Shown: positions 10,933 through 41,371 of the stretch, one piece after another
Position numbering within the stretch: position 1 is the first letter of the stretch
Layout of the letters: each line of letters opens with the position of its first letter
Source of the DNA: Victivallales bacterium
GTDB lineage: Bacteria > Verrucomicrobiota > Lentisphaeria > Victivallales > G963678815
Length of the DNA: 64,000 bases
Direction of reading: 5' to 3'
Assembly (NCBI GenBank): GCA_963678815.1
Contig: OY787460.1
Coordinates: forward strand, 7,031,503-7,095,502
Position numbers and translations under genes: made by a program
The notes under the pieces: generated by a model
What the model saw: the letters and a program-made list of their open reading frames with translations, nothing else
Databases searched by the model: none
Told to the model about the DNA's origin: nothing

Positions 10933-11664
10933 TTATTTTTCCGTCCAATCGTTGTTGAACAGAGCCTTGCCTATCCAGTTGTAAGAAGAAACGTGTCCGT
11001 CCTTAAACAGAAAATTAGCGGTTCTGTTATGGATCCAGGAAGGAGCTGACCGATGGTTAATTCTCAGCGTGTTGAATGGATAGAGCATTTTACATGTGTT
11101 CATAACACCACCCGACGGAGCATAATAATTCATCTCACCGAGAATCGGGGTCCCGTTAATAATGTAATTATATTTTCTGTAAGTTAAAGCGCCACTGATA
11201 CCATTATAAAACCATCCCCCCAGCCGGTCATCATTGTCGGTAAGCCCGGTGGTAACATAATTTGAGGCATAATATTCTCCTTCCGGGTCTCCGTTCCATA
11301 CCGGTGAATCACTGGCCTTTGACCCAATTGACGGACACCAGTATAAACCTACCGGAGATGCTCCCAGGGAACTTGAACCGCTATACCTGACCAGTTCCTG
11401 ATTCAAATATTCGTTTACATAATTAACATAACAGCAATTCGCATTAGTCGGGGGCATCCAATTGTTTGAATCGTCCACATAAAAATAGATACCGGAAAAA
11501 ATTTGTTTCATGTTGTTGCCGCAAGTTGATTTTTTTGCCTGTTCCCTGGCCTGTTTCAGCGCCGGCAGCAGCATTGCCGCAAGTATGGAAATGATCGCGA
11601 TCACGACCAACAGCTCGATAAGCGTGAAACTACTTTTCCGGTATTGTCCATGTCGTCGAGTCAT
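10933..11664 (-). CDS. Prepilin-type/DUF1559 (H-X9-DG) pseudopilin-like protein
   Basis: '[36 protein letters not shown]' ... 'FKDGHVSS'. It is a paralog of 7512..8255. Confidence 0.85.
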
Positions 11665-19046: not shown

Positions 19047-19394
19047 ATTACGGGAGAATTTCTTTAATCTATTTCGATAGATAGTTTCATATAAATATGA
19101 TTTTAGTTTTAATTTGTAGCGTTGATGAATATTGCCACTCCAGAAGCCCGGGCGCAGTATGGTTTTATAATTCAATAAATTATAAACAACTGCGGCCAGA
19201 TAAAAGGCTATATACTTATGGACAGGACATTTAGGCCAGGCATAAGTTTTATCTTCGGGGGGAATGATATTCGCGGAAAGACATGGAACAATCTCTGTAT
19301 TTTCGCAATTTCCACAGGTAACCGTCTTCCCGGCGAATTCAGCATCTGATTCAAGCATGTATTCACAATTTGAACAATAATACTCTATTTTCAT
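19017..19394 (-). CDS. Small zinc-ribbon protein with a C-terminal hydrophobic segment. It is the last gene of the HD-GYP-like operon.
   Basis: CSNC...CGNC zinc-ribbon motifs. The start ATG lies 1 nt after the upstream gene's stop codon (19395). Confidence 0.4.
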   Translation of the reverse strand: MKIEYYCSNCEYMLESDAEFAGKTVTCGNCENTEIVPCLSANIIPPEDKTYAWPKCPVHKYIAFYLAAVVYNLLNYKTILRPGFWSGNIHQRYKLKLKSYLYETIYRNRLKKFSRNSLAFVDNQQ

Positions 19395-20804
19395 TTATCT
19401 TACCTCACTTAATAAATGGAAGGATAATCCTGTTGCATCTTTAACGGATTGTATTGCGGCGACGGCTTTTTCATCGGGAACAGTTAATAATTTTCCCTCA
19501 TTCAGCGGTAAGCTATCTTGATCGGTGCACACTTTCAGCTCCAGTTTCCCTGACTGCGTCACTGAGGTTGGCTGGACTAAGGCCAGTTCCCCGCCCGTCA
19601 GTTTCACAATGCCGCCGAGGGGATATTTACCGGTCATATTAATAAAGGCATTAACGATTTGCGGTTCCAGGGTGCTGTCAGCGGAAAATTCAGCAAGAAG
19701 TTTTAAAGCGTCATGCGGTTCAATTTCAGGATTGAAAGCGAGAATCCGGTCAAAAGTATCGCAAGTTGATATTATGGAAGTAAATAAATTAATATGTCTA
19801 TTTTCCGCGAATTGAAGATGATGTTCATACGCGCAAACAACAACAAGCTTTTCGATTTGTTTGTCGGAATCGATAATTTGCGCGCTGTTCAAGTGATGCT
19901 GATCGTATATGTCGTCATCAACTTCATCGGAATATTCCTCGTTCATCAACGAACAATCATGAAGGAAGGCCGCTCTGCCCAATTCCTGAAGGCGCACGGA
20001 ATCATCTAACAGTGAAGCCCCAAGATAAATTGCTTGAATACAAACATTTACGGGATGCGTATATCTATATTGGGCAATATAGTGTAAGAAACTCATCATG
20101 AATAAATTATGGGATTTTTTCTTAACATGGTGAATGATCGAGTTAACCAGATAGTCTATTTTCCAAAGCTCAAATGAACAACTGTCCCCGGGGGCTGCCT
20201 GAAGCTCCTTGACAATATCAATTGCTACCATATAAAGCTTTTTCGCGTCAGAAATAAACCTTACTTCAAACTCGCCTTCTTCAACGGTTAAATTATCATC
20301 GTCTTCAATATGTTCCTGCAGGGATACGCATATAAAGCCTTGCGACTTTAAGTGGTCGTTGAGCTGACGCCTTTTTTCAGCTTCCGGGGCGTTACTTATT
20401 AAATCAAGCAAAGCGATAATTTCTTCCGCCGCCACGCCCTCATGGAAATCTATCCTGCTTATCTCTCTCTTTATAAACATTTTGCCAAGATGCACGGAAG
20501 CGGATGAACCATCGTGGTCTATGATAATGTCATCATAAATAAAGTGTTTGCCGTTAAAATCAAGACTGATTATTTTCCGGTCAAGCATTACCTCATGAAA
20601 TCCGTTTACCACGGATTCGGCGGAAGCCAGAACTTTCGGATGTTTGTGATTATAAAGATGTAATTGCCGCTGACACATAAAAATATCAAGCAATACCGGA
20701 GCAAGCTTCCTGCTGAGCTGCAAAGATTCCTTTGATACGGCGTCCAGTTTGTTGTTTTTGTTATTTTCCGGTTCTGGAAGTTCCTGATTAGCTGGCGCAT
20801 TCAT
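19395..20804 (-). CDS. Degenerate HD-GYP-like (HD superfamily) domain protein
   Basis: HD-type motifs are present: 'HHVKKKSH', 'AAFLHDCS' (the HD motif), 'AYEHHLQF', and 'CDTFDRILAFNPEIEPHDALKLLAEF', which matches the HD-GYP 'DvyDAL..R.Y' region. The canonical GYP is absent. It overlaps the upstream gene by 4 nt (ATGA). Confidence 0.45.
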   Translation of the reverse strand: MNAPANQELPEPENNKNNKLDAVSKESLQLSRKLAPVLLDIFMCQRQLHLYNHKHPKVLASAESVVNGFHEVMLDRKIISLDFNGKHFIYDDIIIDHDGSSASVHLGKMFIKREISRIDFHEGVAAEEIIALLDLISNAPEAEKRRQLNDHLKSQGFICVSLQEHIEDDDNLTVEEGEFEVRFISDAKKLYMVAIDIVKELQAAPGDSCSFELWKIDYLVNSIIHHVKKKSHNLFMMSFLHYIAQYRYTHPVNVCIQAIYLGASLLDDSVRLQELGRAAFLHDCSLMNEEYSDEVDDDIYDQHHLNSAQIIDSDKQIEKLVVVCAYEHHLQFAENRHINLFTSIISTCDTFDRILAFNPEIEPHDALKLLAEFSADSTLEPQIVNAFINMTGKYPLGGIVKLTGGELALVQPTSVTQSGKLELKVCTDQDSLPLNEGKLLTVPDEKAVAAIQSVKDATGLSFHLLSEVR

Positions 20805-23407
20805 TTTTTAACTTCCTTTTTTGAGTTCGTCAAATTCGAATTTGGTTTTTGCCGTTTCTTTAATATTCCTGATAAAGTAACAAACGGATATTTCACGGCA
20901 ACCCAAATATTTATGAAAGTATACTTAATTATCTTTGAAAACATCTTTATAATTATCATCGGCAGCTTGCACAATAAAATCAGGATATTTTTAATACCGT
21001 CAATTATTAACCTGAAAAGCTTGATCAGCGGACGAATGACAGGTTTCAATATTCGTTTTACGGTTTTTAAAATTATAGCAGGAACTTTGCATAATGCACT
21101 CCATACGGATTTTACCACATTCAGCACCACCGTAACCATATAGATAAAAGGGCTAATAACAGCCATTATTATCCGTTTCGCCAGCAACAGGTATTTATGA
21201 ATAACGGATTTTATCCGGTCAATAACATATCGCAGAAGCGGGCGCTGCAATTTATCAAAATTCTTTTCTAGCACCAATGCGGCCCTGATCGATTTGTTCA
21301 TCGACAGAACGTATGCCACCCCAAACCGCAATTCATGGTTTTTATTGCGCCGCCATAAGTTGCGTCTGGAAATAAGATGCTCCAGCACTGGAACAGCCGC
21401 CGCTTCGTTTCTGACTCCCATCGCTTCCACGGCCGCAATGCGATATATATTAGCGGACAATCCGTAACGCTCATTTCCTGCAGCGATGCGCGCCAGCACC
21501 GAACCGCTTGACGGCCCTCTGAAGCTGGACAATATTGATATAATAGCAAGTCTGCAAGCCCTGCCGATACTTTTCTTTTGCAGACTTTCCAGCAACATAT
21601 GTTCGGCTTCACGATTATGACGCATTGCGAGTAAATCAAAAGCTGTAAGTTTGTCATCGATATCTTTGCTGTTCAGCAATTCGGAATAAAGCCGGTTTTC
21701 CGTTTCACGAGAATGCAGCAATTGTGAAATAACCTGATACGGCAGCAATGTTTTTTGGCGTATCACTCTTAAAACAAAAGCCGGAATAAATTCTTTCGGA
21801 AGATACTTGTTTAACGCCAGCAGCAATCCGGCTGATTCTTTCTGATTCCTGCTCGAATATTCGAAAAAAAGATTGGATATTGCCGAAACCTGGTCAGGCT
21901 TCAATTTCTTCCAGAATACCTTATTAAATATTTCAACGGAGGAACTGTCTAACTTTGTGAATTGTTTAAATATGGGAATAAGCGTATCATAATCCTTTTT
22001 CCTGAGGTATAGATCCAGCAGGCTTGCCAGCCGGACACAAATATCCATAATTCTTTCTTCCTCCTTTTCGGGAACCAGTAAATTAGTAAGAACATGCAGG
22101 TAGCCAAGTTCAAGATTGGACTGCAAATTCTCAAAGCGGAAATTCAGGAAATCCGAGTTAACTTCGGAAAGTTCCGAAACATGGATTCCCGGAACAGCGG
22201 TATAATTTATCTTCGCCGCCTGAAATAATTTTTCAAGAAAATCATTAATATTAAAGCTTTCCGGTAATCTTTCGTTTATCAGTTGTTTGCGGAAATATTT
22301 AATTAATTCATCGAGTTTTTTCTTAGTCAGCCGCAAAGACGATACATATTTCAGCGTACCATGGTCCCGGTATTCCTTCATTATTACCTGATAGTATTCC
22401 GGGAAATCGAATGAAAAGAGTTTTACGCTGGTAATGATTTTATTTTTCAGGGTCGAATGACAATAATACTTCAGGAGTTTCAACCGTAATTCACTGTCGA
22501 GGAGGCGTGCGGATTTTTCCAGTTGCCGGGCAACATCCTTGCCGTCCTGCGACGAATGCATCAGGATAACGTTCTCCAACCGCTGCATAATGTTAAACAT
22601 TTTCCCCAATGAAATCATTTTAGGATTGTCAGGATCAGCGCTCAGGAAAACCAGTAATTCCGCTACAGCACGCGAATCGGAAAAAACTTGCACCGCAAGC
22701 TGGATTTCACGCTGTATCATGGTATTTTTCGCACCCCGGTGCAACAGGTAATCAATAAACGGGGTTTCTTCAATTCCCGCTTTTTTCAGCCCGGCCAACC
22801 AATTTTTACGGTTCCCGGAGCCTTGCCCCATGAATTCGGTTAAACCGGCCGTTCCGTCTTCTCCGGAAGCGTCAAGATGTGAAGCAAGGTCAATTTCAAT
22901 ACTGCTGATATTTTCCTGGGAAAGAAGGAATTTAGGGCCCCCGGAATTCAGCAGCATCAACGGTTTCATTGCCAGGATGTTGCATAATCCGATAATATCT
23001 TCTTCGCTGATTCCATTCCAGAACCTGAGCTTGCGGACATGGTGCATTTCAAGGACGTTCGCCAGGTCAGCGATCTGCGGATCATCCATGGATATTTGAA
23101 ATTTCGGGGTTATTAGCTTGTCGCCAATCTTTACCACAACCAGACATTGGTGGTATTCAAACAGTTGATTGCAACTGTTGACCAGGCCGGTAACCGAAGT
23201 AGTAACCAGTTTATGGGTCGGCGGATACAGACGAATATTCTTAAATACTTTTTGAACGTTAGCCAAAAAAGAGAAATAAAGCGCCTGCTGATCGCCCTTT
23301 TTTATTTCATCGGAAAATAATTGATATGACTCTTTCAAAGTGTTCCTCGTAAAATAAATTTGTGGTTCCTCGTCAGTAAATATACGTAACGGAAATACCC
23401 GCATCAC
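20801..23407 (-). CDS. Large (868 aa) alpha-helical repeat (HEAT-like) protein with a C-terminal multi-TM segment. Hypothetical.
   Basis: A long ORF with repetitive helical regions and strongly hydrophobic C-terminal helices (IIMAVISPFIYMVTVVLNVV..., ILILLCKLPMIIIKMF). It is first in a three-gene operon. Confidence 0.5.
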   Translation of the reverse strand: MMRVFPLRIFTDEEPQIYFTRNTLKESYQLFSDEIKKGDQQALYFSFLANVQKVFKNIRLYPPTHKLVTTSVTGLVNSCNQLFEYHQCLVVVKIGDKLITPKFQISMDDPQIADLANVLEMHHVRKLRFWNGISEEDIIGLCNILAMKPLMLLNSGGPKFLLSQENISSIEIDLASHLDASGEDGTAGLTEFMGQGSGNRKNWLAGLKKAGIEETPFIDYLLHRGAKNTMIQREIQLAVQVFSDSRAVAELLVFLSADPDNPKMISLGKMFNIMQRLENVILMHSSQDGKDVARQLEKSARLLDSELRLKLLKYYCHSTLKNKIITSVKLFSFDFPEYYQVIMKEYRDHGTLKYVSSLRLTKKKLDELIKYFRKQLINERLPESFNINDFLEKLFQAAKINYTAVPGIHVSELSEVNSDFLNFRFENLQSNLELGYLHVLTNLLVPEKEEERIMDICVRLASLLDLYLRKKDYDTLIPIFKQFTKLDSSSVEIFNKVFWKKLKPDQVSAISNLFFEYSSRNQKESAGLLLALNKYLPKEFIPAFVLRVIRQKTLLPYQVISQLLHSRETENRLYSELLNSKDIDDKLTAFDLLAMRHNREAEHMLLESLQKKSIGRACRLAIISILSSFRGPSSGSVLARIAAGNERYGLSANIYRIAAVEAMGVRNEAAAVPVLEHLISRRNLWRRNKNHELRFGVAYVLSMNKSIRAALVLEKNFDKLQRPLLRYVIDRIKSVIHKYLLLAKRIIMAVISPFIYMVTVVLNVVKSVWSALCKVPAIILKTVKRILKPVIRPLIKLFRLIIDGIKNILILLCKLPMIIIKMFSKIIKYTFINIWVAVKYPFVTLSGILKKRQKPNSNLTNSKKEVKK

Positions 23408-23408: not shown

Positions 23409-23551
23409 CGAAAAACAATAAATTAACCGTAATTAAATAATTCCGGACGGCAACGGCAATGATGAAATTGTATTATTGGGTTTACAGGCTATAGTTTTTG
23501 TGATAAGATTTTCTCAAATAAAAGACAATATTCAATCGAAAAACAAGACAA

Positions 23552-24622
23552 ATGGTTGATACCAGGATTACCTTAATTGAGAAGTTAAAGGATATCGAAA
23601 ATTTCGAATCCTGGCGTGAATTCCATGATTTGTATGCAGGCATAATCATCGGCTGGGCTTGCCGGATGGGATGCCCCCAGACACTTGCCGCAGATGTTTT
23701 GCAGGAAGTAATGGTAACTCTCTTCAGGTCGATGCCTTCGTTTGAATATACTCCCGACAAAGGCTCTTTCAGGTCGTATTTGAAGGTGATTGTCCAGCGG
23801 CGGACGATTGATGCTTTCAGGCGCGAAGGACGCTATCTCACCGTAAACGAAGATGAAAGTAACCTGTTCGATAAAATAGAGATGGAGGAAGCCACCCCAG
23901 GCGAACCTCTGGAAATGGACGGTATCTGGCTCCGGGAAATCCTTGCTCAGGCCCTTAAAGTTTCATACGGCAAGATAGACCAGCAAACTTATAAGGCTTT
24001 TTGCATGTATGTATTGGATGAACTTCCCGCGGAAGAGGTGATCAAGCGTCTCAACATCAAGCGCCTGGGAACACTGTACCAACAGAAAAGCCGGTTTCTG
24101 ATTATTCTCAAAAATTCATTTTTCACGTTGCTTTGTGAATTGTCAAACGGTGAATTCAATGTGGCAAATACGGATAGTATGGACAAGTTGTTCAACTCCG
24201 CGCTTAATGAGTTAATTCAGGGGAAAAGAGAATTGCGGAACACTTTGGTCAAGTCGGATGAATCCATCGCGGCCATTAAAAACGCACAGACAACCATGAA
24301 CCTGATCAAGAAAAATGTCCCCCCCGAAAAAGACGCTTCATACCTGTTCCTGCTGAAAAAAAACGAGCCTGGAACGTGGATCAAACTTCAGAACAAGCTG
24401 ACAATTGGCTCTTCGGATAAATGTGACGTTGTGCTTGATTATGAAGGCGTTTCAGGACTGCACTGTACCGTTGAAAAGACGGAAAAAGGTTTCATCCTCA
24501 ATGACGAAAACAGCACCAACGGAACCTTTGTCAATAAGAGGAAAATTACCGGCCCCATGATCCTGAAAGACGGTGACACCGTCCAAATAGCGCTCTGCCA
24601 CCTGGTCTTTATTACACCGTAA
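23552..24622 (+). CDS. ECF-family sigma factor (regions 2 and 4) fused to a C-terminal FHA (forkhead-associated, phosphothreonine-binding) domain
   Basis: Region 2 reads 'FHDLYAGIIIGWACRMGCPQTLAADVLQEVMVTLFRSMPSFEYTPDKGSFRSYLKVIVQRRTIDAFRREGR'. The region-4-like HTH reads 'YVLDELPAEEVIKRLNIKRLGTLYQQKSRF'. The FHA domain reads 'LTIGSSDKCDVVLDYEGVSGLHCTVEKTEKGFILNDENSTNGTFVNKRKI...DGDTVQI'. Confidence 0.7.
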   Translation: MVDTRITLIEKLKDIENFESWREFHDLYAGIIIGWACRMGCPQTLAADVLQEVMVTLFRSMPSFEYTPDKGSFRSYLKVIVQRRTIDAFRREGRYLTVNEDESNLFDKIEMEEATPGEPLEMDGIWLREILAQALKVSYGKIDQQTYKAFCMYVLDELPAEEVIKRLNIKRLGTLYQQKSRFLIILKNSFFTLLCELSNGEFNVANTDSMDKLFNSALNELIQGKRELRNTLVKSDESIAAIKNAQTTMNLIKKNVPPEKDASYLFLLKKNEPGTWIKLQNKLTIGSSDKCDVVLDYEGVSGLHCTVEKTEKGFILNDENSTNGTFVNKRKITGPMILKDGDTVQIALCHLVFITP

Positions 24623-25834
24623 TTAAAACGGCAACGGCTTCACGGACTTGCCGTCCTTGTTCCTGCGGCATTTTGAAACATCTATAAAGATCAGCCATTT
24701 ACCTTTTTTCAGACAGCTCGCTACGATGGCGTTGCCTTCTAACACCGCCCGTTTGAACATACCCCTTTCGCCGTCATTGGTCACGGTTGTGGAATTCATA
24801 ATCAGCAGGTCATGGGCGGAAACAGGGGCCATCACTTTTTTGGCGCTTCCGGCATTTTGAATAACATTGATCCCAGCCGGATAATTTTTCCTTTTCAGCC
24901 AGCAGGCCACGAATGCGTGTCCCGGAATAATGATTATTACCGGATGCAAACCGGCGTTTTCCCATATCGCGGCCTCGAGCACGGCCAGGTCAAGACAAGT
25001 TCCCTGCTTATATTTCAGCACGTCGTCATGGGAACGGATCTTCTGTCCTTTCTCGAAGGAGGCCGGAACGGTGATGTAACCGATGTCCAGATCTTTGTTC
25101 ATGGTCCGGTGAATCGCCGTCAACATGGCAAGCACACGCATTGGATCACCCGCCTGGTAATCCTCGAAGGAATCAATCCCCGATACTTCCTTGAGCCTCT
25201 TTCTGGACATGCTGACGATTTTCTTTACCGCCGCGGAGTTCGGCCTTACGAACGCACAGAGATTTTCAATGTTTTCCGGGTCCAGGAACCATTCGTTGAA
25301 GGCCAGAATGTCAACCTTCGAGGTCGATGCGTAAAGGGTTTCCTTTGAATCCTTAATGGTCACCACCAGGGCGGCCGAAAGCCGCTCTTCGACCTCCTTG
25401 AACGCCTTGTGCCGGATCGGGATATGAATGTTCCTGAGAGTTACGGATTTTCCCGCGCCGATTGACGGTATGGTCTGGGTCCATTCCCCGGCATAGTCGT
25501 CCGGACTCAACTTTACGGTCACCAGCAGGTTCGGGGTCGCGGTATTGCCGTTATTGGTAACGGTAATGCTCTTTACAAGCTGGTCGCCGAGGTGGACCAG
25601 GAAATAGTTGAACATCGGCTCATAGACAATTTTTACCTTCAGGTCTTTAGCCTTCACGGTTTCTTTCGGGGCCGGAACCGGAGCTTTTTTTACCGGAATC
25701 GGATACTTTCTCACCTTCCCCATCGGTTTAGGGTTCTTGTACATGCTGTTAAGCGCGTCCTCATAATCGTCCGCAACCGCGCCGATCACCATTGACGCCA
25801 CCGCCATCAAACCCAATACAATCTTTCTCTTCAT
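24623..25834 (-). CDS. Secreted transglutaminase-like (Cys-His-Asp papain-fold) domain protein
   Basis: It has a signal peptide. 'QGTCLDLAVLEAAIW' supplies the catalytic Cys and 'IPGHAFVACWL' the His. Its N-terminal roughly 55 aa are near-identical to the neighbouring gene 25831..28269. It overlaps the upstream gene by 4 nt. Confidence 0.5.
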   Translation of the reverse strand: MKRKIVLGLMAVASMVIGAVADDYEDALNSMYKNPKPMGKVRKYPIPVKKAPVPAPKETVKAKDLKVKIVYEPMFNYFLVHLGDQLVKSITVTNNGNTATPNLLVTVKLSPDDYAGEWTQTIPSIGAGKSVTLRNIHIPIRHKAFKEVEERLSAALVVTIKDSKETLYASTSKVDILAFNEWFLDPENIENLCAFVRPNSAAVKKIVSMSRKRLKEVSGIDSFEDYQAGDPMRVLAMLTAIHRTMNKDLDIGYITVPASFEKGQKIRSHDDVLKYKQGTCLDLAVLEAAIWENAGLHPVIIIIPGHAFVACWLKRKNYPAGINVIQNAGSAKKVMAPVSAHDLLIMNSTTVTNDGERGMFKRAVLEGNAIVASCLKKGKWLIFIDVSKCRRNKDGKSVKPLPF

Positions 25835-28269
25835 TTTTTATCCTTTATTTTATTTAACATTTCCAAAGCTGATTTTTTCCAGTATTCATCATCAGTACTA
25901 TCATAGCATTTCTGGTACCAGAATCTTGCTTTTTCATTGTTTTTTGCTATACCGTAACCGCCTTCGTAATAGATATATCCAAAATCATACATTGCATGTT
26001 CAAGTCCTTTGTTGGCGGCCTTTTCATACCATTCAACGGCCTTGACATAATTTTTTGCCACCCCCGAACCTGAATAATACATCGCACCAATAAAAAACGC
26101 AGCGCTCACGTGACCTTTGTCAGCGGCTTTTCTGTACCACTCTAATGCTTTTTCATAGTCCGAACTCAATAATCCGATGCAATACGTAGCCAAGATATTA
26201 CCATTGTCATAAGACTTTTGAAACCAGAGCATTGCCTTGACGCCGTCCTCTTTACAGCCAACGCCGGTAGTATATGCTCTTCCGGTTATATATTGAGCGG
26301 TTGCATCGCCATTTTCCGCCAAACTTAAAACACCGGGAAATGATTCCTTGCAGATTTTTTCAGTTTTTTCTTTTTTTTCTTTCTTATAATTTAAAAATCC
26401 ATACATCTTGTAATACGCTTTTAAATATATTGCGGGAGGATAATCCGCCGCAGCTGATTGCTCCAGATATTTTTTCTCGAGTTTTTTATCATATTTTTCA
26501 GCCGTTCCGTATCGATAAGCCAATGCCATTTGTCCCTGACCTGAAATAGAACTTTTTGATACATCCGGCTTAGAATATCTGGATTTACTCAAAACGGGAG
26601 CAAGGGCAACGCGGAAGCCCAGATCGAGGTGCTGGCCCGACGGCGTGCGCCAGAGACTATAAGTTGACCGGCAGCGCCTGACGATGCAGGACCAGCTGCC
26701 GCCGGAAATCACACGGTCCGAGCCAGTACTGGGCCCTACAGGATCGGTCCGGGAATTGTTGTCGAGTTTGCCAAACCAGTCATTACACCACTCCCAAACG
26801 TTCCCACTCATATCATGAATACCAAGTTCATTACCACTCTTAGACCCCACCGCGTGCGTTTTTTTACCGCTGTTGTCTTTATACCAGCCAACACGATCAA
26901 GATCATTGCTGCCGCTGTACTTATAACCTTTGCCTTTATTCCCTCCTCGCGCCGCATATTCCCATTCCGCTTCCGTAGGAAGACGATAAACATAGCCTTC
27001 CAGTAGACGGCCAGCGGCACGCTCGCGTTCCGTAAGCTTCTCGCAGAACTTTACCGCGTCATTCCAGCTTACTTGTTCTACAGGATTGCTGTTTCCTTTG
27101 AAATGACTCGGATTTGTTCCTATAAGTGTCTGGTATTCTTTTTGCGTTACTTCATACTTCCCGATCCAAAAGCCCTTGCTGATGGTTACACGATCCACCG
27201 GCCCTGTTTCAGCTGTCCCCATCATGAAGCTGCCGGAAGCCACGTAGACTAATTTCATTCTGAGTTCCGGCACCGAAAATGACTTATCCTTGGCTGACTT
27301 TTTTTTCGTTTTATTGATTTTCGTGATACCCGCCTGATCCATCCAGTCTTTACCATAAAAGCGTTTAATATGCTCATCCGTGTAGAAAACAACGCCAAAA
27401 TTTTTGAAATTACGGGGTCTGCTCCAGGCGATAGGAACAATATCGCCCTTTCCGCTTAAACCGCCTCTATAGACGTAATCAAGCGTTTTTTCAGTAAGTG
27501 TTTCACCGGGTTTTATGGGCTTTGTGCCAGTGCTTGGACTTGTAAATATTTTCAAATCTTCCACATAACCCTCTTTTATCAAGAGATTCAGTCCGGCGGC
27601 GCCGTCAGGCGTTGGGAATTTATCATTATGGTCAAGAGCATATTGCATCAAAATAAGGCCAATACAAAGCAAATCGCTGGAAGCATTACTTCTCGTTGTT
27701 TCAAGTTTGTGCTGGGCCTGATGGATCTTGGCGATGCCTGCTTTTCCCAGCCAGTCTTTACCGGTGAAACTTTTAACATTTCCGTCCGTGTAGAGGACAT
27801 TTCCGTAATCCTCGAATTTATCAGAATTGTCCCAGGCGATAGCCGCAATACCGTCACTTTTTTTCAATCCGCCTCTATAGATATAACTATATAAATTTAT
27901 GTCCGAAGCTTTTTCTTTCAGATATTTTTCCTTTTTCAATAATTCCAGTCCTTCATAGTCATTGAGAAAAGGATATTTACCGTCATGGTCCGCGGCATAA
28001 TTATTCAGGGCCGAACCGATTTGTTTCAGGTTACGGATACTTATTTTTTTTATTTTGTCCAAATATGATCTGATATTGTCATTGTCGGCAGATTTTTTCG
28101 GAGTTGCCTCCGGGAGCGTTTTTTTAACGGGAACCGGATGCTTCCTGACTTTACCTATTGGCTTGGAATTCTTGTACATGCCATTAAGCGCGTCCTCGTA
28201 ATCGTCCGCAATTACGCCAGCCGCAACCGACGCCACCACCAGCAAACTCAAGACGATTTTTCTATTCAT
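25831..28269 (-). CDS. Secreted protein with two leaderless DUF1559-like (H-X9-DG) domains, an FGE-sulfatase (SUMF1-like) domain that retains both active-site-position cysteines, and C-terminal Sel1 repeats
   Basis: It has a signal peptide. 'LKQIGSALNNY...YTDGNVKSF' and '...FYTDEHIKRF' are DUF1559-like. The FGE domain reads 'WIGKYEVTQKEYQ...LPTEAEWEYAARGG...GNVWEWCND...GGSWSCIVRRCRS'. Sel1 repeats read 'AMYYSGSGVAKNYVKAVEWYEKAANKG'. Confidence 0.7.
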   Translation of the reverse strand: MNRKIVLSLLVVASVAAGVIADDYEDALNGMYKNSKPIGKVRKHPVPVKKTLPEATPKKSADNDNIRSYLDKIKKISIRNLKQIGSALNNYAADHDGKYPFLNDYEGLELLKKEKYLKEKASDINLYSYIYRGGLKKSDGIAAIAWDNSDKFEDYGNVLYTDGNVKSFTGKDWLGKAGIAKIHQAQHKLETTRSNASSDLLCIGLILMQYALDHNDKFPTPDGAAGLNLLIKEGYVEDLKIFTSPSTGTKPIKPGETLTEKTLDYVYRGGLSGKGDIVPIAWSRPRNFKNFGVVFYTDEHIKRFYGKDWMDQAGITKINKTKKKSAKDKSFSVPELRMKLVYVASGSFMMGTAETGPVDRVTISKGFWIGKYEVTQKEYQTLIGTNPSHFKGNSNPVEQVSWNDAVKFCEKLTERERAAGRLLEGYVYRLPTEAEWEYAARGGNKGKGYKYSGSNDLDRVGWYKDNSGKKTHAVGSKSGNELGIHDMSGNVWEWCNDWFGKLDNNSRTDPVGPSTGSDRVISGGSWSCIVRRCRSTYSLWRTPSGQHLDLGFRVALAPVLSKSRYSKPDVSKSSISGQGQMALAYRYGTAEKYDKKLEKKYLEQSAAADYPPAIYLKAYYKMYGFLNYKKEKKEKTEKICKESFPGVLSLAENGDATAQYITGRAYTTGVGCKEDGVKAMLWFQKSYDNGNILATYCIGLLSSDYEKALEWYRKAADKGHVSAAFFIGAMYYSGSGVAKNYVKAVEWYEKAANKGLEHAMYDFGYIYYEGGYGIAKNNEKARFWYQKCYDSTDDEYWKKSALEMLNKIKDKK

Positions 28270-28522
28270 TTTCCGCCTTTATCTTATTTAACATTCTCAA
28301 GGCATTTTCATATCCATTATCATAAGCCTTCTGAAACCAGTATTTTGTTTTCAAATGATCTTTTGCTATGCCCAGCCCATCATAAAATAACACTCCAATG
28401 CTATACATCGCGGTTTTACTACCTTTCCCGATGGCCTTTTTATACCATTTATTGCTTTGGTATAGTCCTTTGCAACTCCCTAAACACCATCGTAGTATAA
28501 ACATAATACTTTGCGGATGCAT
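28262..28522 (-). other. Out-of-frame continuation of the kinase 28449..31118 C-terminus. These are the terminal Sel1 repeats, displaced by a frameshift that may be authentic or a sequencing error.
   Basis: The alternative-frame peptide 'KWYKKAIGKGSKTAMYSIGVLFYDGLGIAKDHLKTKYWFQKAYDNGYENALRMLNKIKAENE' matches the canonical C-termini of paralogs (…WFQKSYDN…MLNKL / …WYQKAYDNGDKNAKEKLDKLK). The in-frame ending '...KYYVYTTMVFRELQRTIPKQ' does not match them. Confidence 0.6.
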
Positions 28523-31118
28523 CGCCTTTATCGGCTGCTTTTTTATACCATTTCATCGCTTTAGTATAATTTTTCCCCACGCCATAACCGCAACGGTAAA
28601 AATTTCCTATCTTACACATTGCATGAGTATCACCTTTGTCCGCGGCTTTTCTATAAAACTCTAATGCTTTTACATAGTCCTTTTTATTGAACCATATATT
28701 TCCGGTATCATTCAAGGATGAGATTTCTATTTCCATTATAACCTGCTTGGGGATGCCAGCTTTCTCCATCCAATCTTTACCGGTAAAGCTTTTTATTCTT
28801 CCGTCAGAATAGAAAACGCTACCGAAATTCTTAAAATTGCCGGGTTTGTCCCAGGCAACAGGTTTGCCTTCAGAATCTTTTGCCATCAAACCATTCCGAT
28901 AAACATAATCCACGGTTGTTTCTGTCCATGCTTCACCTTTTTTTGCCGGTTTGGTATTAGTATTGGGGCAAGTTAAAATCCTGGGATCTTTTATGTAGTA
29001 TTCTTTCCTCAATACATCCAGACCGGCCGCACCGTTGGTGGCTGGAAAGTGCTGAGCAAAGTCATCAGAATACATTTTCAGAGCGAGTCCAATCTTTTTT
29101 AAATTTATTCTCGCAGCCTCCAACTTACGTGTTGTTTTAATGTCGTTATCAGTTTTTTCTACCGCTTTGGCAATGAGGGTTACGGCTTTCCTGTAGGATG
29201 ACAGGGCTTTATCCCAGTCTTCGGAGGATACGGCGTTGTCGGCGCTGGATACTGCAAGCCGGGCTTCGGCCCAGTCCGCGCCGCCGAATTTGTCGATATC
29301 GGCGCGTTTCACTTTAGCGAGTTGGGCTTCATATTGTTTTTTGATAATAGCCAGTGCGGAAGTTCCAATAGCATAGTTCTTTGCGTGTTTGTATTCCTTT
29401 TCAGACGCCGTGAAGCTTTTCTTAGCTCCCGAAAAATCACCTTTTGCAAGCTTGGCCTTGCCATCATCTTCAAGGCTCTTTGCGCTGTTCCAGATACTTT
29501 TCGCCAGACTCGAAGCGTTGCTCTTTTCCGCGCTTTGTTTCTCCTGTTCCGATCTTTTTGAGGATACCATTGCCGAATTTCGTTCCGAATCGAGCTTTAC
29601 AAGCTTTCTGCATCCGGTTATTACTTCCTGGTATTTACCTAAAGCATTGCCGTAAGATTTGGCGCCAAACAAGGTTTTTGCGGTATTGAGTTTCAGTTTC
29701 AGAGTATCTTTTTTCTTTTGAAATCCGTGTTCGGGAGAAATGCGGCTTAACCTTTCGAACACCATTTCCGCGCGGCTCTTGACCGGAGCGGTTTCGGCGA
29801 GTCCGGCTTTTTCCTTGATCCTGTCCTGCATCGTCCGGGCGTAGGAGTTTTGAGGGTCGATCGACAGTATTTCCGAGGCCGCCGCCGAAGCCGCCGACAA
29901 GTCCCCTTTTCTGAATGAAGACTTCAGTTTCTTTTTAAGGGAATTGAGTTTTTCCTGCGTCTCTTTCGCGAGCTGTTCCTGACGCTGGCGTTCTTCCTCT
30001 GCCGCTTTTTCCCTGGCCAATTGTTCGGCTTTGGACTTCTGGACTTCCCGGTATTTGGTGTAGCCGAAATATCCGCCAGCGCCTATAAGGACAAGAATAA
30101 TCAGCAGAACCGCAATTATTTTGCCGCCGCCGGAGGATTTAGAGGCGCGTTTTACTTTGACTTTTCCCCTCATAGCATTGATAAACTCGTCACAGGAAGC
30201 GTAGCGGTCTGAGCCTTTTTTGGCTAACGCCTTCATCAAAAGCGCGTTTTGTTTTTTATTCAATTGGGGCAAAGGTTCCGGCATCCGGTTTTCCACCAGG
30301 TTCAACATCAAACCGGCGTCGCCCGATTCGAAAACCGACTGGAACGGTACGCCGCCGCTGATCAACTCATAAAGCATACAGGCCAGCGCGTACTGATCGG
30401 TTTCGGGTCCCTGGTTTTTACCCGCCCACTGCTCGGGGGCCATGTAGGGGCGCGTACCGGAGGTGTCGAACTGTTCCCGGGAGACCCGGCCCATCGAACT
30501 GCGGATTTCGGCGGCAAGCCCGAAGTCGAGAACCTTAACTTCTCCATCCGGGGAAATCATGATATTCGACGGTTTTACGTCGCGATGGATGATCTTTTTC
30601 GAATGCGCGAAGTCCAACGCCTGGGCGACTTTTCCGCAGATGTCCAGAGCTTTGTCCAGCGGTACTTTTTTATCCGGGAACTGTTTGCGCCAGTTGGACA
30701 GTGTCGAGCCATTGACATACTCCATCACCACCAGATAACTGTCGGGAAAAACCCGTAAATGTTCCTGGGCGGCGGCGTCAACCTTTTCCACCTTGTGGAG
30801 ATGTTCCAGCGAGGCTATGTATTGGTGTTTCAGCTTGGAGACCATTGCAAAGTTGGACCGGACGTTTTCCAGCTCTTCCGGAACCGCCGAGATCATCGGC
30901 GGCAATACTTTCAATGCGACATTGATCCCTGCCACGGTATCATGCGCCCGGTATACCGCGCCGAACCCGCCAGCTCCCAGTTGCTCGACAAGTTCATAAC
31001 GGTCAATGCGCCCTAACGATCCGGGAGAATTCCCGTTTTCGGTAAGCATGTTGCCAATGGATAAATCCAGATTTTCGCCACTTTCCGTTTTAAAATCGCC
31101 AATATTACTATTATCCAT
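28449..31118 (-). CDS. Hanks-type Ser/Thr protein kinase (receptor-like) with one TM helix, a coiled-coil/TPR-like ectodomain, a leaderless DUF1559-like domain and Sel1 repeats. The 3' end is frameshifted and the true C-terminus is probably at 28262.
   Basis: Kinase motifs GAGGFGAVYRA, VALKVL, IIHRDVKPSNIM, DFGLA and GTRPYMAPEQ are all present. The TM helix is IIAVLLIILVLIGAGGYFGY. The DUF1559-like segment reads 'LKKIGLALKMY...FYSDGRIKSF'. The N-terminal roughly 650 aa are identical to gene 47603..50713. Confidence 0.8.
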   Translation of the reverse strand: MDNSNIGDFKTESGENLDLSIGNMLTENGNSPGSLGRIDRYELVEQLGAGGFGAVYRAHDTVAGINVALKVLPPMISAVPEELENVRSNFAMVSKLKHQYIASLEHLHKVEKVDAAAQEHLRVFPDSYLVVMEYVNGSTLSNWRKQFPDKKVPLDKALDICGKVAQALDFAHSKKIIHRDVKPSNIMISPDGEVKVLDFGLAAEIRSSMGRVSREQFDTSGTRPYMAPEQWAGKNQGPETDQYALACMLYELISGGVPFQSVFESGDAGLMLNLVENRMPEPLPQLNKKQNALLMKALAKKGSDRYASCDEFINAMRGKVKVKRASKSSGGGKIIAVLLIILVLIGAGGYFGYTKYREVQKSKAEQLAREKAAEEERQRQEQLAKETQEKLNSLKKKLKSSFRKGDLSAASAAASEILSIDPQNSYARTMQDRIKEKAGLAETAPVKSRAEMVFERLSRISPEHGFQKKKDTLKLKLNTAKTLFGAKSYGNALGKYQEVITGCRKLVKLDSERNSAMVSSKRSEQEKQSAEKSNASSLAKSIWNSAKSLEDDGKAKLAKGDFSGAKKSFTASEKEYKHAKNYAIGTSALAIIKKQYEAQLAKVKRADIDKFGGADWAEARLAVSSADNAVSSEDWDKALSSYRKAVTLIAKAVEKTDNDIKTTRKLEAARINLKKIGLALKMYSDDFAQHFPATNGAAGLDVLRKEYYIKDPRILTCPNTNTKPAKKGEAWTETTVDYVYRNGLMAKDSEGKPVAWDKPGNFKNFGSVFYSDGRIKSFTGKDWMEKAGIPKQVIMEIEISSLNDTGNIWFNKKDYVKALEFYRKAADKGDTHAMCKIGNFYRCGYGVGKNYTKAMKWYKKAADKGDASAKYYVYTTMVFRELQRTIPKQ

Positions 31119-31143
31119 ATATTTATTCCATCCTGAATTATAA
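29160..31143. repeat. Copy 1 of a roughly 2 kb direct repeat (copy 2 at 48755-50738). About 1.8 kb is identical and a junction of about 180 nt is about 88% identical.
   Basis: Identical six-frame ORFs recur at a constant offset of 19595 nt (for example 29322..29561 and 48917..49156). I compared the junctions directly. Confidence 0.85.
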
Positions 31144-31148
31144 AAAAA

Positions 31149-32852: not shown

Positions 32853-32890
32853 TTCACACCTCCTGCCTTATAAATAATTTTCACATATTT

Positions 32891-32916
32891 TACGTAACAA
32901 AAACATCCACCTCACG
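32891..32916 (-). promoter_or_regulatory. Candidate ECF-type promoter, motif copy A (CGTGAGG-N15-CGTA), 39 nt upstream of the 31149..32852 start
   Basis: An RBS (AGGAGGTG) lies between the motif and the start codon. Confidence 0.5.
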
Positions 32917-32962
32917 CGAAATAATGAATTTACCGCGATAACATAAAAAACGTTTTGCAAAC

Positions 32963-36232: not shown

Positions 36233-36237
36233 TAAAT

Positions 36238-41316: not shown

Positions 41317-41337
41317 TGTGCTTCTTTTTATGTTAAG

Positions 41338-41371
41338 TCAGGAGTCAACCACCATTCCGGTCAACTCCTGA
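41338..41371 (-). other. Imperfect inverted repeat (TCAGGAGTCAACC ... GGTCAACTCCTGA) in the 82 nt gap between the lipoprotein gene and the giant kinase gene. Possible attenuator, processing site or protein-binding site.
   Basis: The stem is 8 plus 3 bp with 2 mismatches. No U-run follows on the transcript strand. A direct repeat GATATCAGGATATCAGGA lies adjacent on the transcript strand. Confidence 0.3.

What the first reader, a model, noticed from the sequence alone, without database searches (positions are those of the whole stretch)
23552..24622. ECF sigma factor fused to an FHA domain sits among five receptor Ser/Thr kinases
The 356 aa protein has recognisable ECF sigma region 2 (…DVLQEVMVTLFRSMPSFEYTPDKGSFRSYLKVIVQRRTIDAFRRE…) and a region-4-like HTH. 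It ends in a canonical FHA domain (…SGLHCTV…NGTFVN…DGDTVQI), which is a phosphothreonine reader. It lies immediately beside operons encoding five Hanks-type kinases and a separate FHA protein. The simplest reading is a sigma factor whose activity, localisation or sequestration is gated directly by kinase autophosphorylation, with no separate anti-sigma factor. I do not know of a characterised ECF::FHA architecture. ECF factors with genomic association to Ser/Thr kinases in Planctomycetes are established, but this fusion would be a more direct mechanism.
Basis: partly seen in the sequence, partly recalled or inferred. Interest (0 to 1): 0.85.

Follow-up and report, generated by a model that had tools for sequence, protein, structure and literature searches.

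The report
ECF sigma factor fused to FHA domain
This gene encodes a real alternative sigma factor with a phosphothreonine-reader-type (FHA) domain on its tail; the fusion defines a conserved, apparently undescribed family that usually sits beside receptor Ser/Thr kinases, but this copy has lost the arginine that normally grips the phosphate.

Summary
The ORF (23552..24622, +, 356 aa) is real. HMMs and an AlphaFold model confirm an ECF sigma factor (sigma2 and sigma4), a helical linker and a C-terminal FHA fold. Five active-looking receptor Ser/Thr kinases and a separate FHA protein lie on the opposite strand (24623..50713).

The fusion is not a one-off. I collected 99 distinct full-length relatives at 24-57% identity; every named one is from Lentisphaerota. 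Orthologues of the kinase module recur beside the sigma gene in at least eight genomes. Two distant members have a kinase as the immediate same-strand neighbour.

The FHA domain is not fully canonical. Gly286, Ser301, His304 and Asn323 are invariant or nearly so, but the phosphate-binding Arg of the GR motif is Ser287. Only 48 of 99 relatives keep that Arg.

A single linker threonine, T231, is conserved in 90 of 99. The gene has a housekeeping-type promoter, so control is probably post-translational.

My best reading is a kinase-coupled sigma factor that uses T231 and the FHA domain as a phospho-switch. The mechanism is inferred, not shown. I found no published description. Verdict: a new variant of known kinds, with interest about 0.6.

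The parts
23481..23509 (+). Sigma-70-type promoter-like site (TTTACA, 17-nt spacer, TAAGAT, with TG before the second hexamer), 43 nt upstream of the start codon
   Evidence: The same type of site (TTGAAA or TTGCAA, 16-17 nt, TATATT or GATAGT) lies upstream of homologues in L001, L004, L006, L007, L010, L012, L013-L015, L017 and L025 (read from the sequences). Consensus match only; function is not shown.
23552..24622 (+). ECF sigma::FHA fusion gene (356 aa plus stop)
   Evidence: 99 distinct full-length relatives were aligned.
23603..23833 (+). Sigma region 2 (residues 18-94), with the core-binding motif LAAD48-VL-Q51-E52 in region 2.2
   Evidence: Pfam PF04542. It aligns with M. tuberculosis SigE DAEDLTQE. 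D48 is kept in 95/99 relatives, Q51 in 98/99 and E52 in 80/99.
23834..23908 (+). Variable, low-confidence sigma2-sigma4 linker (residues 95-119)
   Evidence: pLDDT below 50 for residues 96-119. This is the least conserved stretch of the N-terminal half and second lowest in the whole alignment, after residues 201-210.
23909..24142 (+). Sigma region 4 (residues 120-197), with the recognition helix G-T-L-Y176-Q177-Q-K-S-R181
24143..24337 (+). Helical linker between sigma4 and FHA (residues 198-262), otherwise poorly conserved
   Evidence: Helices 207-222, 226-230 and 236-252 in the model, with pLDDT about 58-61 for residues 221-240. Conservation profile.
24242..24244 (+). Codon of Thr231 in the motif [Y/L/F]-R-x-T-[M/I/L]-[I/V/L]; candidate phospho-acceptor
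   Evidence: Thr in 90 of 99 relatives (Ser 3, Ala 3, gap 3). It is the only conserved Ser/Thr column between residues 195 and 262. Codon checked. Phosphorylation is inferred, not shown.
24338..24619 (+). FHA-fold domain (residues 263-356)
24410..24412 (+). Codon of Ser287, at the position of the phosphate-binding Arg of the FHA GR motif
   Evidence: Alignments to Rv1747 (IGR), Ki-67 (FGR) and GarA (AGR). Arg is present in only 48 of 99 relatives. The window protein is one of 14 of 99 with no basic residue at positions 287, 288, 302 or 322.
24623..25834 (-). Transglutaminase-like secreted protein (403 aa), convergent with the sigma gene with no gap
   Evidence: weak DUF553 match. An orthologue lies next to the sigma gene in L006 at 40% identity.
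25831..28269 (-). FGE-sulfatase-like plus Sel1-repeat protein (812 aa, N-terminal signal or TM segment)
   Evidence: The FGE domain has an orthologue in L006.
28449..31118 (-). Receptor Ser/Thr kinase 1 (889 aa; kinase, TM, TPR/Sel1)
   Evidence: 42% identity to a Lentisphaera profundi kinase next to that genome's ECF::FHA gene (L003).
31149..32852 (-). Double-zinc-ribbon plus SPFH/Band-7 protein (567 aa), a conserved module member
   Evidence: Orthologues in L005 (61%), L007 (37%), L006 (36%) and L003 (25%).
32963..36232 (-). Receptor Ser/Thr kinase 2 (1089 aa; kinase, TM, Sel1 repeats)
   Evidence: Orthologue in L007 at 47%.
36238..41316 (-). Receptor Ser/Thr kinase 3 (1692 aa; kinase, TM, about 20 Sel1 repeats)
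41399..42373 (-). Conserved 324-aa protein of unknown function with an N-terminal hydrophobic segment
   Evidence: No Pfam hit. Orthologues in L007 (34%) and L006 (31%).
42421..43632 (-). LpoB-like protein (403 aa), a conserved module member
   Evidence: Orthologues in L005 (61%), L007 (43%), L025 (43%) and L006 (34%).
43740..45338 (-). Separate zinc-ribbon plus FHA protein (532 aa) with a canonical GR motif (FGRSRDADVII, ISGLH, SSNGS)
   Evidence: sequence. Orthologues in L005 (46%), L012 (34%), L006 (33%) and L025 (30%).
45476..47338 (-). Receptor Ser/Thr kinase 4 (620 aa; kinase, TM, FGE-sulfatase-like sensor); the kinase most consistently found with the sigma gene
   Evidence: Orthologues in L005 (46%), L006 (36%), L010 (35%), L003 (34%), L007 (33%) and L025 (33%).
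47603..50713 (-). Receptor Ser/Thr kinase 5 (1036 aa; kinase, TM, FGE-sulfatase-like sensor). Its first 420 residues are identical to those of kinase 1.

Best explanation
The gene encodes a functional group-4 (ECF) sigma factor carrying a C-terminal regulatory extension made of a helical linker and an FHA-fold domain. It belongs to a conserved family in Lentisphaerota and related PVC bacteria that is functionally coupled to membrane-spanning Hanks-type Ser/Thr kinases.

Proposed mechanism (inferred). The sigma gene is transcribed constitutively from a housekeeping-type promoter, and its activity is set post-translationally. A receptor kinase of the adjacent module senses an extracytoplasmic signal through FGE-sulfatase-like or Sel1/TPR domains. 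It then phosphorylates the conserved linker threonine T231. The FHA domain reads a phosphothreonine, either first on the activated kinase to recruit the sigma as a substrate (as in EmbR/PknH and GarA/PknB), or on pT231 in cis (as in GarA/OdhI), or both. That changes how the extension packs against sigma2 and sigma4, and so whether the sigma can bind core RNA polymerase.

In this copy the phosphate-binding Arg is replaced by Ser287. Phosphate binding is therefore probably weak or atypical, which a tethered cis ligand would tolerate better than a ligand in trans.

Shown: the architecture, the fold, family conservation, conserved synteny with the kinases, the residue pattern and the promoter type. 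Inferred: phosphorylation of T231, what the FHA domain binds, and whether phosphorylation activates or inhibits.
For: Architecture and fold. The core-binding residues D48, Q51 and E52 and the sigma4 recognition helix are strongly conserved, as expected of a working sigma.

Family: 28, then about 34, full-length clusters by word-indexed search. An exhaustive HMMER search lists about 65 representatives (at 50% identity) of 336-477 aa that match end to end. 99 distinct sequences were aligned.

Kinase coupling. Orthologues of the kinase-FGE protein, the zinc-ribbon FHA protein, the DZR-SPFH protein, the LpoB-like protein and the 324-aa protein lie next to the sigma gene in L005, L006, L007 and L025, and partly in L003, L010 and L012. 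Sigma identity in these loci is only 32-54%. The distant members P0129 and P0124 (listed at 227 and 244 bits) have a kinase as the immediate same-strand neighbour. The sigma-only relative P0059 lies head-to-head with a kinase-TPR gene.

FHA surface under selection: G286, S301 and H304 are kept in 99/99 and N323 in 98/99. 85 of 99 retain a basic residue at one of positions 287, 288, 302 or 322.

T231: Thr in 90/99, almost never Ser, inside an otherwise variable linker. FHA domains are pThr-specific (established knowledge).

A housekeeping-type promoter is present here and upstream of homologues. No ECF-type motif is shared among the module's intergenic regions.

No conserved anti-sigma-like neighbour: the upstream genes at 16974..23407 have no homologue at any family locus.
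Against: Ser287 replaces the GR arginine, and Gly302 replaces the basic residue that follows the Ser in GarA, Rv1747 and Ki-67. The whole window clade lacks any basic residue in the phosphate-proximal loops. GR, SxxH and NG are the motifs held to be crucial for pThr binding (PMC3162421).

The +3 position after T231 is not conserved, whereas many FHA domains select at +3. Retention of T231 does not correlate with retention of a basic residue at 287 (Fisher p = 0.29). The model is only moderately confident around T231 (pLDDT about 58-61), and I could not inspect coordinates or PAE, so no cis docking is shown.

Nine or so family loci, mostly one Victivallales clade that has an alpha-L-fucosidase upstream, have no kinase within 10 kb. 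The window contains no PP2C phosphatase. No regulon or target promoter was identified.
Confidence: 0.4

Rival explanations
1. One reading: the FHA domain docks the sigma in trans onto phosphothreonines of autophosphorylated receptor kinases. The kinase then acts as a membrane-bound anti-sigma or sequestering partner (or as a recruiter), and no cis switch is involved.
For: Kinase neighbourhoods are conserved. All five kinases look catalytically competent, with cytoplasmic kinase domains and Thr-rich activation loops and N-terminal tails. FHA-mediated docking on kinases is the established route for EmbR, GarA and Rv1747 (PMC6213207). About half of the family keeps the canonical GR.
Against: Trans docking needs high affinity, yet this protein and its clade lack the phosphate-binding Arg and any substitute basic residue. 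The model does not explain the near-invariant T231. The juxtamembrane segments are short, about 20-25 residues. The module already encodes a separate, fully canonical FHA protein that could occupy such sites.
Confidence: 0.2
2. The FHA fold here is a phospho-independent regulatory C-terminal extension. It would act like the extensions of ECF41/ECF42-type sigmas or the FHA-like domains of T3SS and T7SS proteins, folding onto sigma2 and sigma4 or binding another protein. Kinases, if involved at all, act elsewhere.
For: The GR arginine is lost in 51 of 99 members, and all basic pocket residues are lost in 14, including this protein. FHA-fold domains lacking canonical residues are known to work without pThr, for example MxiG and Cpn0172 FHA-2 (PMC3162421). 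There is a Pfam hit to Yop-YscD_cpl. pTM of 0.75 suggests a defined packing between domains. ECF sigmas with regulatory C-terminal extensions are an established class (PMC8999054).
Against: S301, H304 and N323, the remaining pThr-site residues, are invariant or nearly so across 99 sequences down to 24% identity. These residues are lost in truly degenerate FHA-like domains such as MxiG. Conserved linkage to Ser/Thr kinases and a second FHA protein points to phospho-signalling.
Confidence: 0.25
3. The protein is not a working sigma factor but a sigma mimic. It would be a PhyR-like anti-anti-sigma whose sigma-like domain is released when the attached phospho-sensing domain is engaged, and it would titrate an anti-sigma of one of the closely related sigma-only paralogues.
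For: The architecture of a sigma-like domain plus a C-terminal phospho-responsive domain parallels PhyR (PMC8999054). Many sigma-only proteins of about 200 aa are very similar to the sigma part (L026).
Against: The core-binding motif (D48, Q51, E52), the region 2.3/2.4 residues and the region 4.2 recognition helix are strongly conserved. No NepR-like or other small anti-sigma gene is conserved nearby. No receiver domain is present.
Confidence: 0.05
4. The sigma gene and the kinase cluster are merely neighbours in a kinase-rich genome, and the FHA domain reads some unrelated phosphoprotein.
For: The sigma gene is on the opposite strand with its own promoter, 3.8 kb from the nearest kinase. About a third of family loci have no kinase within 10 kb.
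Against: Orthologous module genes, not just any kinase, recur next to the sigma gene in at least seven other loci at 32-54% sigma identity. Kinases are immediate same-strand neighbours of distant members.
Confidence: 0.05

Closest known systems
Ser/Thr-kinase-associated ECF sigma factors (ECF43: EcfP/PknT of Vibrio parahaemolyticus, EcfK/PknS of Xanthomonas citri; also ECF59-62, ECF217, ECF267, ECF283)
   Same: An ECF sigma encoded next to a transmembrane Hanks-type kinase without a cognate anti-sigma gene, and proposed to be controlled by direct Thr phosphorylation (PMC7826278; PMC8999054; PMC13147305). The closest sigma-only relative examined (P0059) lies head-to-head with a kinase.
   Different: ECF43 sigmas lack the acidic DAED/DxxD motif in region 2.2 and carry the phospho-acceptor Thr there (STTA or QTTA). 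This family keeps D48, Q51 and E52 and has no Thr at that site. None of the described kinase-associated groups is reported to carry an FHA domain. Here the candidate acceptor lies in a post-sigma4 linker.
[quoted passage not shown]
   Same: A sigma2-sigma4 core followed by a fused C-terminal domain that replaces a separate anti-sigma factor as the regulatory element (PMC8999054).
   Different: The described extensions are SnoaL-like, TPR, or Cys-rich metal-binding. An FHA-fold extension is not among those found in the papers I could search.
EmbR of Mycobacterium tuberculosis (SARP-family transcription regulator with a C-terminal FHA domain, substrate of PknH)
   Different: EmbR is an OmpR/SARP winged-helix DNA-binding activator, not an RNA polymerase subunit. 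The whole-chain superposition is poor (TM 0.25). EmbR keeps the GR arginine R312.
GarA / OdhI (FHA proteins with a phosphorylatable Thr in a flexible extension that binds its own FHA domain)
   Same: An FHA domain plus a conserved Thr in an adjoining, poorly ordered segment. They are the best sequence and structure matches for the FHA part. They provide the precedent for a cis pThr-FHA switch.
   Different: In GarA and OdhI the acceptor is an N-terminal ETTS motif and the output is enzyme inhibition. Both keep GR and SR. Cis binding is not shown here.
FHA-domain sigma-54 enhancer-binding proteins of Myxococcota, and FHA-GGDEF DgcB of Bdellovibrio
   Different: The output domain (AAA+ activator or diguanylate cyclase) and the domain order (N-terminal FHA) are different.

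Membership tests
ECF (group 4) sigma-70 family sigma factor | Sigma region 2 domain | tested here: met
ECF (group 4) sigma-70 family sigma factor | Sigma region 4 (HTH) domain | tested here: met
ECF (group 4) sigma-70 family sigma factor | Only regions 2 and 4, joined by a short linker (no regions 1.1 or 3) | tested here: met
   The model shows helices 18-92 and 119-197 joined by a disordered segment of about 25 residues.
ECF (group 4) sigma-70 family sigma factor | Acidic/polar core-binding motif DxxDxxQE in region 2.2 | tested here: inconclusive
   The window has LAAD48VLQ51E52. The second Asp, the Gln and the Glu are conserved (95, 98 and 80 of 99). The first Asp is L45 in the window, and none of the seven commonest residues at that column is acidic.
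ECF (group 4) sigma-70 family sigma factor | Binds core RNA polymerase and directs transcription from a group-specific promoter | not testable with these tools
   No shared ECF-type promoter dyad was found in the module's intergenic regions above shuffled controls. This needs experiment.
ECF Hub group assignment (Casas-Pastor et al. 2021) | Score against the group and subgroup HMMs | not testable with these tools
   The ECF Hub HMMs are not available here, and the paper's supplements are not held. The main text mentions neither FHA nor Lentisphaerae.
Canonical phosphothreonine-binding FHA domain | FHA beta-sandwich fold | tested here: met
Canonical phosphothreonine-binding FHA domain | [quoted passage not shown] | tested here: not met
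   Gly286 is present but the Arg is Ser287, by alignment to Rv1747 IGR, Ki-67 FGR and GarA AGR. Arg is kept in 48/99 relatives and Lys in 6/99. Motif definition from PMC3162421.
Canonical phosphothreonine-binding FHA domain | SxxH motif before strand 5 | tested here: met
   S301-G-L-H304. Ser and His are kept in 99/99 relatives.
Canonical phosphothreonine-binding FHA domain | NG motif before strand 7 | tested here: met
   S321-T-N323-G324-T. Asn is kept in 98/99 and Gly in 97/99.
Canonical phosphothreonine-binding FHA domain | Binds pThr peptides | not testable with these tools
   Needs ITC or NMR with phosphopeptides.
ECF43-type phosphorylation-activated sigma (EcfP, EcfK) | Uncharged region 2.2 motif (STTA or QTTA) with a phospho-acceptor Thr in place of DAED | tested here: not met
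   LAAD in the window, and xAxD in the family, with no Thr. Definition from PMC8999054 and PMC13147305.
ECF43-type phosphorylation-activated sigma (EcfP, EcfK) | Encoded next to a transmembrane Ser/Thr kinase, with no anti-sigma gene | tested here: met
   No conserved anti-sigma-like neighbour was found.
ECF sigma with a regulatory C-terminal extension | A conserved domain fused after sigma4, with no cognate anti-sigma gene nearby | tested here: met
   A 160-residue extension is conserved in 99 sequences. The upstream genes are not conserved at other loci.
GarA/OdhI-like cis pThr-FHA switch | A conserved Thr in a flexible segment adjoining the FHA domain | tested here: met
   T231 is kept in 90/99 relatives, in a segment with pLDDT about 58-61.
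GarA/OdhI-like cis pThr-FHA switch | The phosphorylated Thr binds the protein's own FHA domain | not testable with these tools
   No model coordinates or PAE were available and no phospho-modelling was possible. There is no covariation between T231 and a basic residue at 287 (p = 0.29).
PhyR-like sigma mimic | A degenerate sigma-like domain, a receiver domain and a NepR-type partner | tested here: not met
   The sigma motifs are well conserved. There is no receiver domain and no small conserved neighbour.

The most novel reading that the evidence does not exclude
This is a self-contained phosphothreonine-switch sigma factor. A receptor Hanks kinase phosphorylates the near-invariant linker T231, and the sigma's own FHA domain captures pT231 in cis. 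That releases or imposes an autoinhibitory fold on sigma2 and sigma4. It would be a GarA-type switch built into an RNA polymerase subunit, and the first sigma factor known to carry its own phospho-reader. Repeated loss of the FHA arginine would then be explained by the high effective concentration of a tethered ligand.
Probability: 0.25. Interest if true: 0.8.

Novelty: new variant of a known kind. Interest (0 to 1): 0.62.

Why it matters
Two known routes control ECF sigma factors without an anti-sigma factor. One is a fused C-terminal regulatory extension. The other is direct phosphorylation by Hanks-type kinases, which has been characterised experimentally only for ECF43. This family appears to combine the two, because the fused extension is itself a phosphothreonine-reader fold and the genes are conserved next to receptor kinases.

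If the mechanism holds, it gives a compact and testable link between eukaryote-like Ser/Thr signalling and promoter selection in PVC bacteria, whose large kinase and ECF repertoires are mostly unexplained. It would also add a new extension type to the ECF classification.

The family also offers a natural experiment on FHA function. The Ser, His and Asn of the pThr site are invariant or nearly so, while the phosphate-binding Arg is dispensable in half of the members.

Tried and rejected
1. ECF43-like activation by phosphorylation in region 2.2. Rejected because the motif is LAAD..QE with conserved D48, Q51 and E52 and no Thr.

2. Autoregulation from an ECF-type promoter. The upstream region carries a sigma-70-type site, as do homologues. 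A dyad search (5-mer, 15-19 nt, 4-mer) over 72 intergenic regions of eight module loci found nothing above shuffled controls. The regulon therefore remains unknown.

3. A known anti-phage defence system. PADLOC gave only generic kinase-domain matches, to PD-T4-6 and the like.

4. A covariation test of the cis-binding idea, comparing T231 with a basic residue at 287. Not significant (p = 0.29). An apparent swap between linker R229 and FHA R287 involves too few independent lineages to count.

5. An anti-sigma candidate among the neighbours. The divergent 868-aa HEAT-like/TM protein and the 469-aa and 690-aa proteins have no homologues at any family locus.

6. A partner phosphatase. There is no PP2C in the window.

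7. ECF Hub classification. The HMMs and the paper's supplements are unavailable.

8. Context of the same-genome paralogue P0081. It is not on record.

9. Residue-level inspection of the AlphaFold model. Coordinates and PAE are not exposed, so only pLDDT, pTM and fold matches could be used.

10. Literature searches for an ECF-FHA fusion. Seven searches found no description. Subscription-only papers were not searched.
Full report
OBSERVATION

The ORF at 23552..24622 (+ strand) starts with ATG and encodes 356 aa. Pfam finds Sigma70_r2 at residues 28-94 (E 7e-11) and FHA at residues 284-346 (E 6e-19), plus the related Yop-YscD_cpl model. Pfam reports no Sigma70_r4 hit at E<=1. However, the NCBIfam superfamily model TIGR02937 (sigma70-ECF) aligns residues 21-187 to 3-162 of its 165 positions, above its cut-off (50.2 against 42.9 bits). 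That span includes region 4.

THE FHA DOMAIN IS NOT FULLY CANONICAL

FHA domains are defined by three motifs: a GR dipeptide after strand 3, SxxH before strand 5 and NG before strand 7. The Arg and the Ser contact the phosphate (PMC3162421). In pairwise HMMER alignments to solved FHA domains, the window's 'tIGSsdkcDvvL' aligns with Rv1747 'rIGRandnDIVI', Ki-67 'FGRgieCDI' and GarA 'aGRhpdsDIfL'. The window's 'vSGLH' aligns with 'aSRHH', 'vSKQH' and 'vSRRH'.

The protein therefore keeps Gly286, Ser301, His304, Asn323 and Gly324. It has Ser287 in place of the phosphate-binding Arg, and Gly302 in place of the second basic residue found in those FHAs.

NEIGHBOURHOOD

All genes from 24623 to 50713 lie on the minus strand. 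In order they are:
- a transglutaminase-like protein (24623..25834; it abuts the sigma gene tail to tail with no gap);
- an FGE-sulfatase-like/Sel1 protein;
- kinase 1 (28449..31118);
- a double-zinc-ribbon/SPFH protein;
- kinase 2 (32963..36232);
- kinase 3 (36238..41316, about 20 Sel1 repeats);
- a 324-aa protein of unknown function;
- an LpoB-like protein;
- a zinc-ribbon/FHA protein (43740..45338);
- kinase 4 (45476..47338);
- kinase 5 (47603..50713).

All five kinases have HRD and DFG motifs and a single TM helix directly after the kinase domain, which is a receptor topology. Their extracytoplasmic parts are FGE-sulfatase-like or TPR/Sel1. The count of five kinases plus a separate FHA protein is correct. 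But the sigma gene sits at the edge of the cluster, on the other strand, 3.8 kb from the nearest kinase. The separate FHA protein has a canonical GR motif. The window contains no PP2C phosphatase.

THE FUSION DEFINES A FAMILY

A word-indexed search of 5.8 billion proteins returned 28 full-length relatives with the same Pfam architecture, at 32-57% identity. The named ones are Victivallales or Victivallaceae MAGs and Lentisphaera profundi (WP_274150715.1). A profile search raised this to about 34, followed by a sharp score drop from 386 to 110 bits to sigma-only or FHA-only proteins.

An exhaustive HMMER search of 1.84 billion representatives at 50% identity showed that the family is considerably larger. 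About 65 representatives of 336-477 aa match the profile end to end, at 165-569 bits. There are also many sigma-only proteins of about 200 aa that are very similar to the sigma part. Seventeen loci in GTDB representative genomes are all Lentisphaerota, and some MAGs carry two copies.

One relative, P0081 (367 aa, with GR), is recorded on a contig of 8,611,128 nt. That is the same length as the contig carrying the window protein, so the genome probably has a paralogue (inference).

I aligned 99 distinct full-length sequences, down to 24% identity to the window protein.

CONSERVATION PATTERN

The sigma2 and sigma4 regions are the best-conserved parts. This includes D48, Q51 and E52 of the region 2.2 core-binding motif (95, 98 and 80 of 99) and the region 4.2 recognition helix G-T-x-Y-Q-Q-K-S-R. 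That argues for a working sigma factor.

In the FHA domain, G286, S301 and H304 are kept in 99/99 and N323 in 98/99. Position 287 is Arg in only 48, Lys in 6, and otherwise Ser, Ala, Asn or Thr. Counting positions 287, 288, 302 and 322 together, 85 of 99 keep some basic residue near the phosphate site. The remaining 14, including the window protein and all six members of its clade, have none.

On a neighbour-joining tree, GR occurs in several deep branches, including the sister clades of the window clade. So the Arg is probably ancestral and was lost repeatedly.

In the otherwise variable linker between sigma4 and the FHA domain, one column stands out. T231 is Thr in 90 of 99 (Ser 3, Ala 3, gap 3) within the motif [Y/L/F]-R-x-T-[M/I/L]-[I/V/L]. 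It is the only conserved Ser/Thr column between residues 195 and 262. The +3 position is not conserved, and retention of T231 does not correlate with a basic residue at 287 (p = 0.29).

CONSERVED SYNTENY WITH KINASES

tblastn of the window's module proteins against the fetched loci shows orthologues next to the sigma gene in several places.
- L005: kinase-FGE 46%, zinc-ribbon/FHA 46%, DZR-SPFH 61%, LpoB-like 61%.
- L006: kinase-FGE 36% (overlapping the sigma gene's 3' end), FHA 33%, DZR-SPFH 36%, LpoB-like 34%, 324-aa protein 31%, transglutaminase-like 40%.
- L007: kinase-FGE 33%, kinase-Sel1 47%, DZR-SPFH 37%, LpoB-like 43%, 324-aa protein 34%.
- L025: kinase-FGE, FHA and LpoB-like.
- L003 (L. 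profundi), L010 and L012: partial sets.

Two distant members have a kinase as the immediate same-strand neighbour: L027, 328 nt downstream, and L028, 56 nt upstream. A sigma-only relative from a Planctomycetota-like genome lies head-to-head with a kinase-TPR gene.

In contrast, one Victivallales clade with an alpha-L-fucosidase upstream, and a few other loci, have no kinase within 10 kb. The link to kinases is therefore strong but not universal.

EXPRESSION SIGNAL

A sigma-70-type site (TTTACA, 17 nt, TAAGAT, preceded by TG) lies at 23481..23509. Sites of the same kind precede most homologues. A search for a shared ECF-type dyad in 72 intergenic regions of eight module loci found nothing above shuffled controls. 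This suggests, weakly, that the gene is read by the housekeeping sigma and that control is post-translational. The regulon is unknown.

MECHANISM

The best-supported reading is a genuine ECF sigma factor whose fused linker-FHA extension couples it to the co-conserved receptor kinases. By analogy with EmbR/PknH, GarA/PknB and Rv1747/PknF (PMC6213207), the FHA domain would recruit the protein to an activated kinase. The near-invariant T231 would be the phospho-acceptor. By analogy with GarA/OdhI, pT231 could then be bound in cis and change how the extension packs against sigma2 and sigma4.

The residue pattern fits this reading in two ways. The acceptor is Thr and almost never Ser. And the Ser, His and Asn of the pThr site are invariant or nearly so, while the affinity-giving Arg is dispensable, which a tethered, high-local-concentration ligand could explain.

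None of these steps is shown. Against the reading stand several points:
- the window copy lacks every basic pocket residue;
- there is no +3 preference after T231;
- there is no covariation between T231 and position 287;
- the model is only moderately confident around T231;
- I could not inspect coordinates or PAE.

They are weighed in the rival-explanations section.

COMPARISON WITH KNOWN SYSTEMS

It is an ECF sigma factor; the defining domains were tested and met. It is not ECF43-like. ECF43 sigmas replace DAED with STTA or QTTA and are phosphorylated there (PMC8999054, PMC13147305), whereas this family keeps the acidic and polar residues and has no Thr at that site.

It fits the broader classes of kinase-associated ECFs without an anti-sigma factor (PMC7826278) and of ECFs with a regulatory C-terminal extension. 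An FHA extension is not among those described in the papers I could search.

As an FHA domain it meets the fold, SxxH and NG criteria, but not the Arg of the GR motif.

NOVELTY AND SCORE

This is a new variant of known kinds: a conserved ECF::FHA family, apparently undescribed and annotated only as 'sigma-70 family RNA polymerase sigma factor'. It is a plausible new way of wiring Ser/Thr kinases to promoter selection in PVC bacteria.

It would interest ECF and bacterial-kinase specialists, and it is directly testable. The mechanism is inferred, and the window copy is a derived, Arg-less form. Interest is 0.62.

Noticed in passing
window 28449..31118 and 47603..50713 (also 36238..41316): Two receptor kinases share a 100% identical 420-aa N-terminal module (kinase plus TM helix). 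The DNA is identical over at least 29555-30600 versus 49150-50195. Yet they carry different extracytoplasmic sensors, TPR/Sel1 versus FGE-sulfatase-like. A third kinase is 73% identical in the same module. This looks like recent duplication or recombination that shuffles sensor domains onto one kinase cassette.
   Followed up: partly
window 24623..50713; L005, L006, L007, L025 (partly L003, L010, L012): A conserved multi-gene module of unknown function recurs across Lentisphaerota. It contains a kinase-FGE protein, a zinc-ribbon FHA protein, a double-zinc-ribbon/SPFH protein, an LpoB-like protein and a 324-aa protein. Transglutaminase-like, FGE-trypsin or ExbB/ExbD-like genes are often present too. 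No PADLOC system matches beyond generic kinase hits.
   Followed up: partly
family-wide; window 24410..24412: The phosphate-binding Arg of the FHA GR motif has been lost repeatedly (present in 48 of 99), while the Ser, His and Asn of the same site stay invariant or nearly so. In one Victivallales clade a Lys appears one position later (G-[S/N]-K). This is an unusual pattern for FHA domains.
   Followed up: yes
same genome, outside the window (protein P0081): A second ECF::FHA protein (367 aa, with canonical GR) is recorded on a contig of the same length (8,611,128 nt) as the one carrying the window protein, so the genome probably has at least two paralogues. Its context could not be retrieved. 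Two GTDB MAGs also carry two copies each.
   Followed up: partly
window 20801..23407 (-): The divergent upstream gene encodes an 868-aa protein with a weak HEAT-repeat match. Its C-terminal tail of about 130 residues is very hydrophobic and lysine-rich, with repetitive amphipathic segments (two predicted TM-like stretches). It has no homologue at any other family locus.
   Followed up: no
window 7512..8255, 10933..11664, 54499..55359, 62362..63051: Several small proteins carry the N-terminal methylation motif with or without DUF1559, a hallmark of PVC bacteria. They lie among many glycoside hydrolase and carbohydrate-binding genes: rhamnosidase, GH20-like, raffinose-synthase-like, BNR sialidase-like and CBM9. 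This fits a polysaccharide-degrading member of the Lentisphaerota.
   Followed up: no
L003 11265..13095 (Lentisphaera profundi CP117811.1): An IS66-family element (TnpB plus a DDE transposase) is inserted between the ECF::FHA gene and the two convergent kinase-FGE genes.
   Followed up: no
L027 and L028: In distant family members the sigma-kinase pair lies beside a two-partner secretion set (POTRA/ShlB, TPS) and a CHAT-TPR protein in L027, and beside a caspase-FGE protein and a reverse transcriptase in L028. This hints that some members may serve conflict or surface systems.
   Followed up: no
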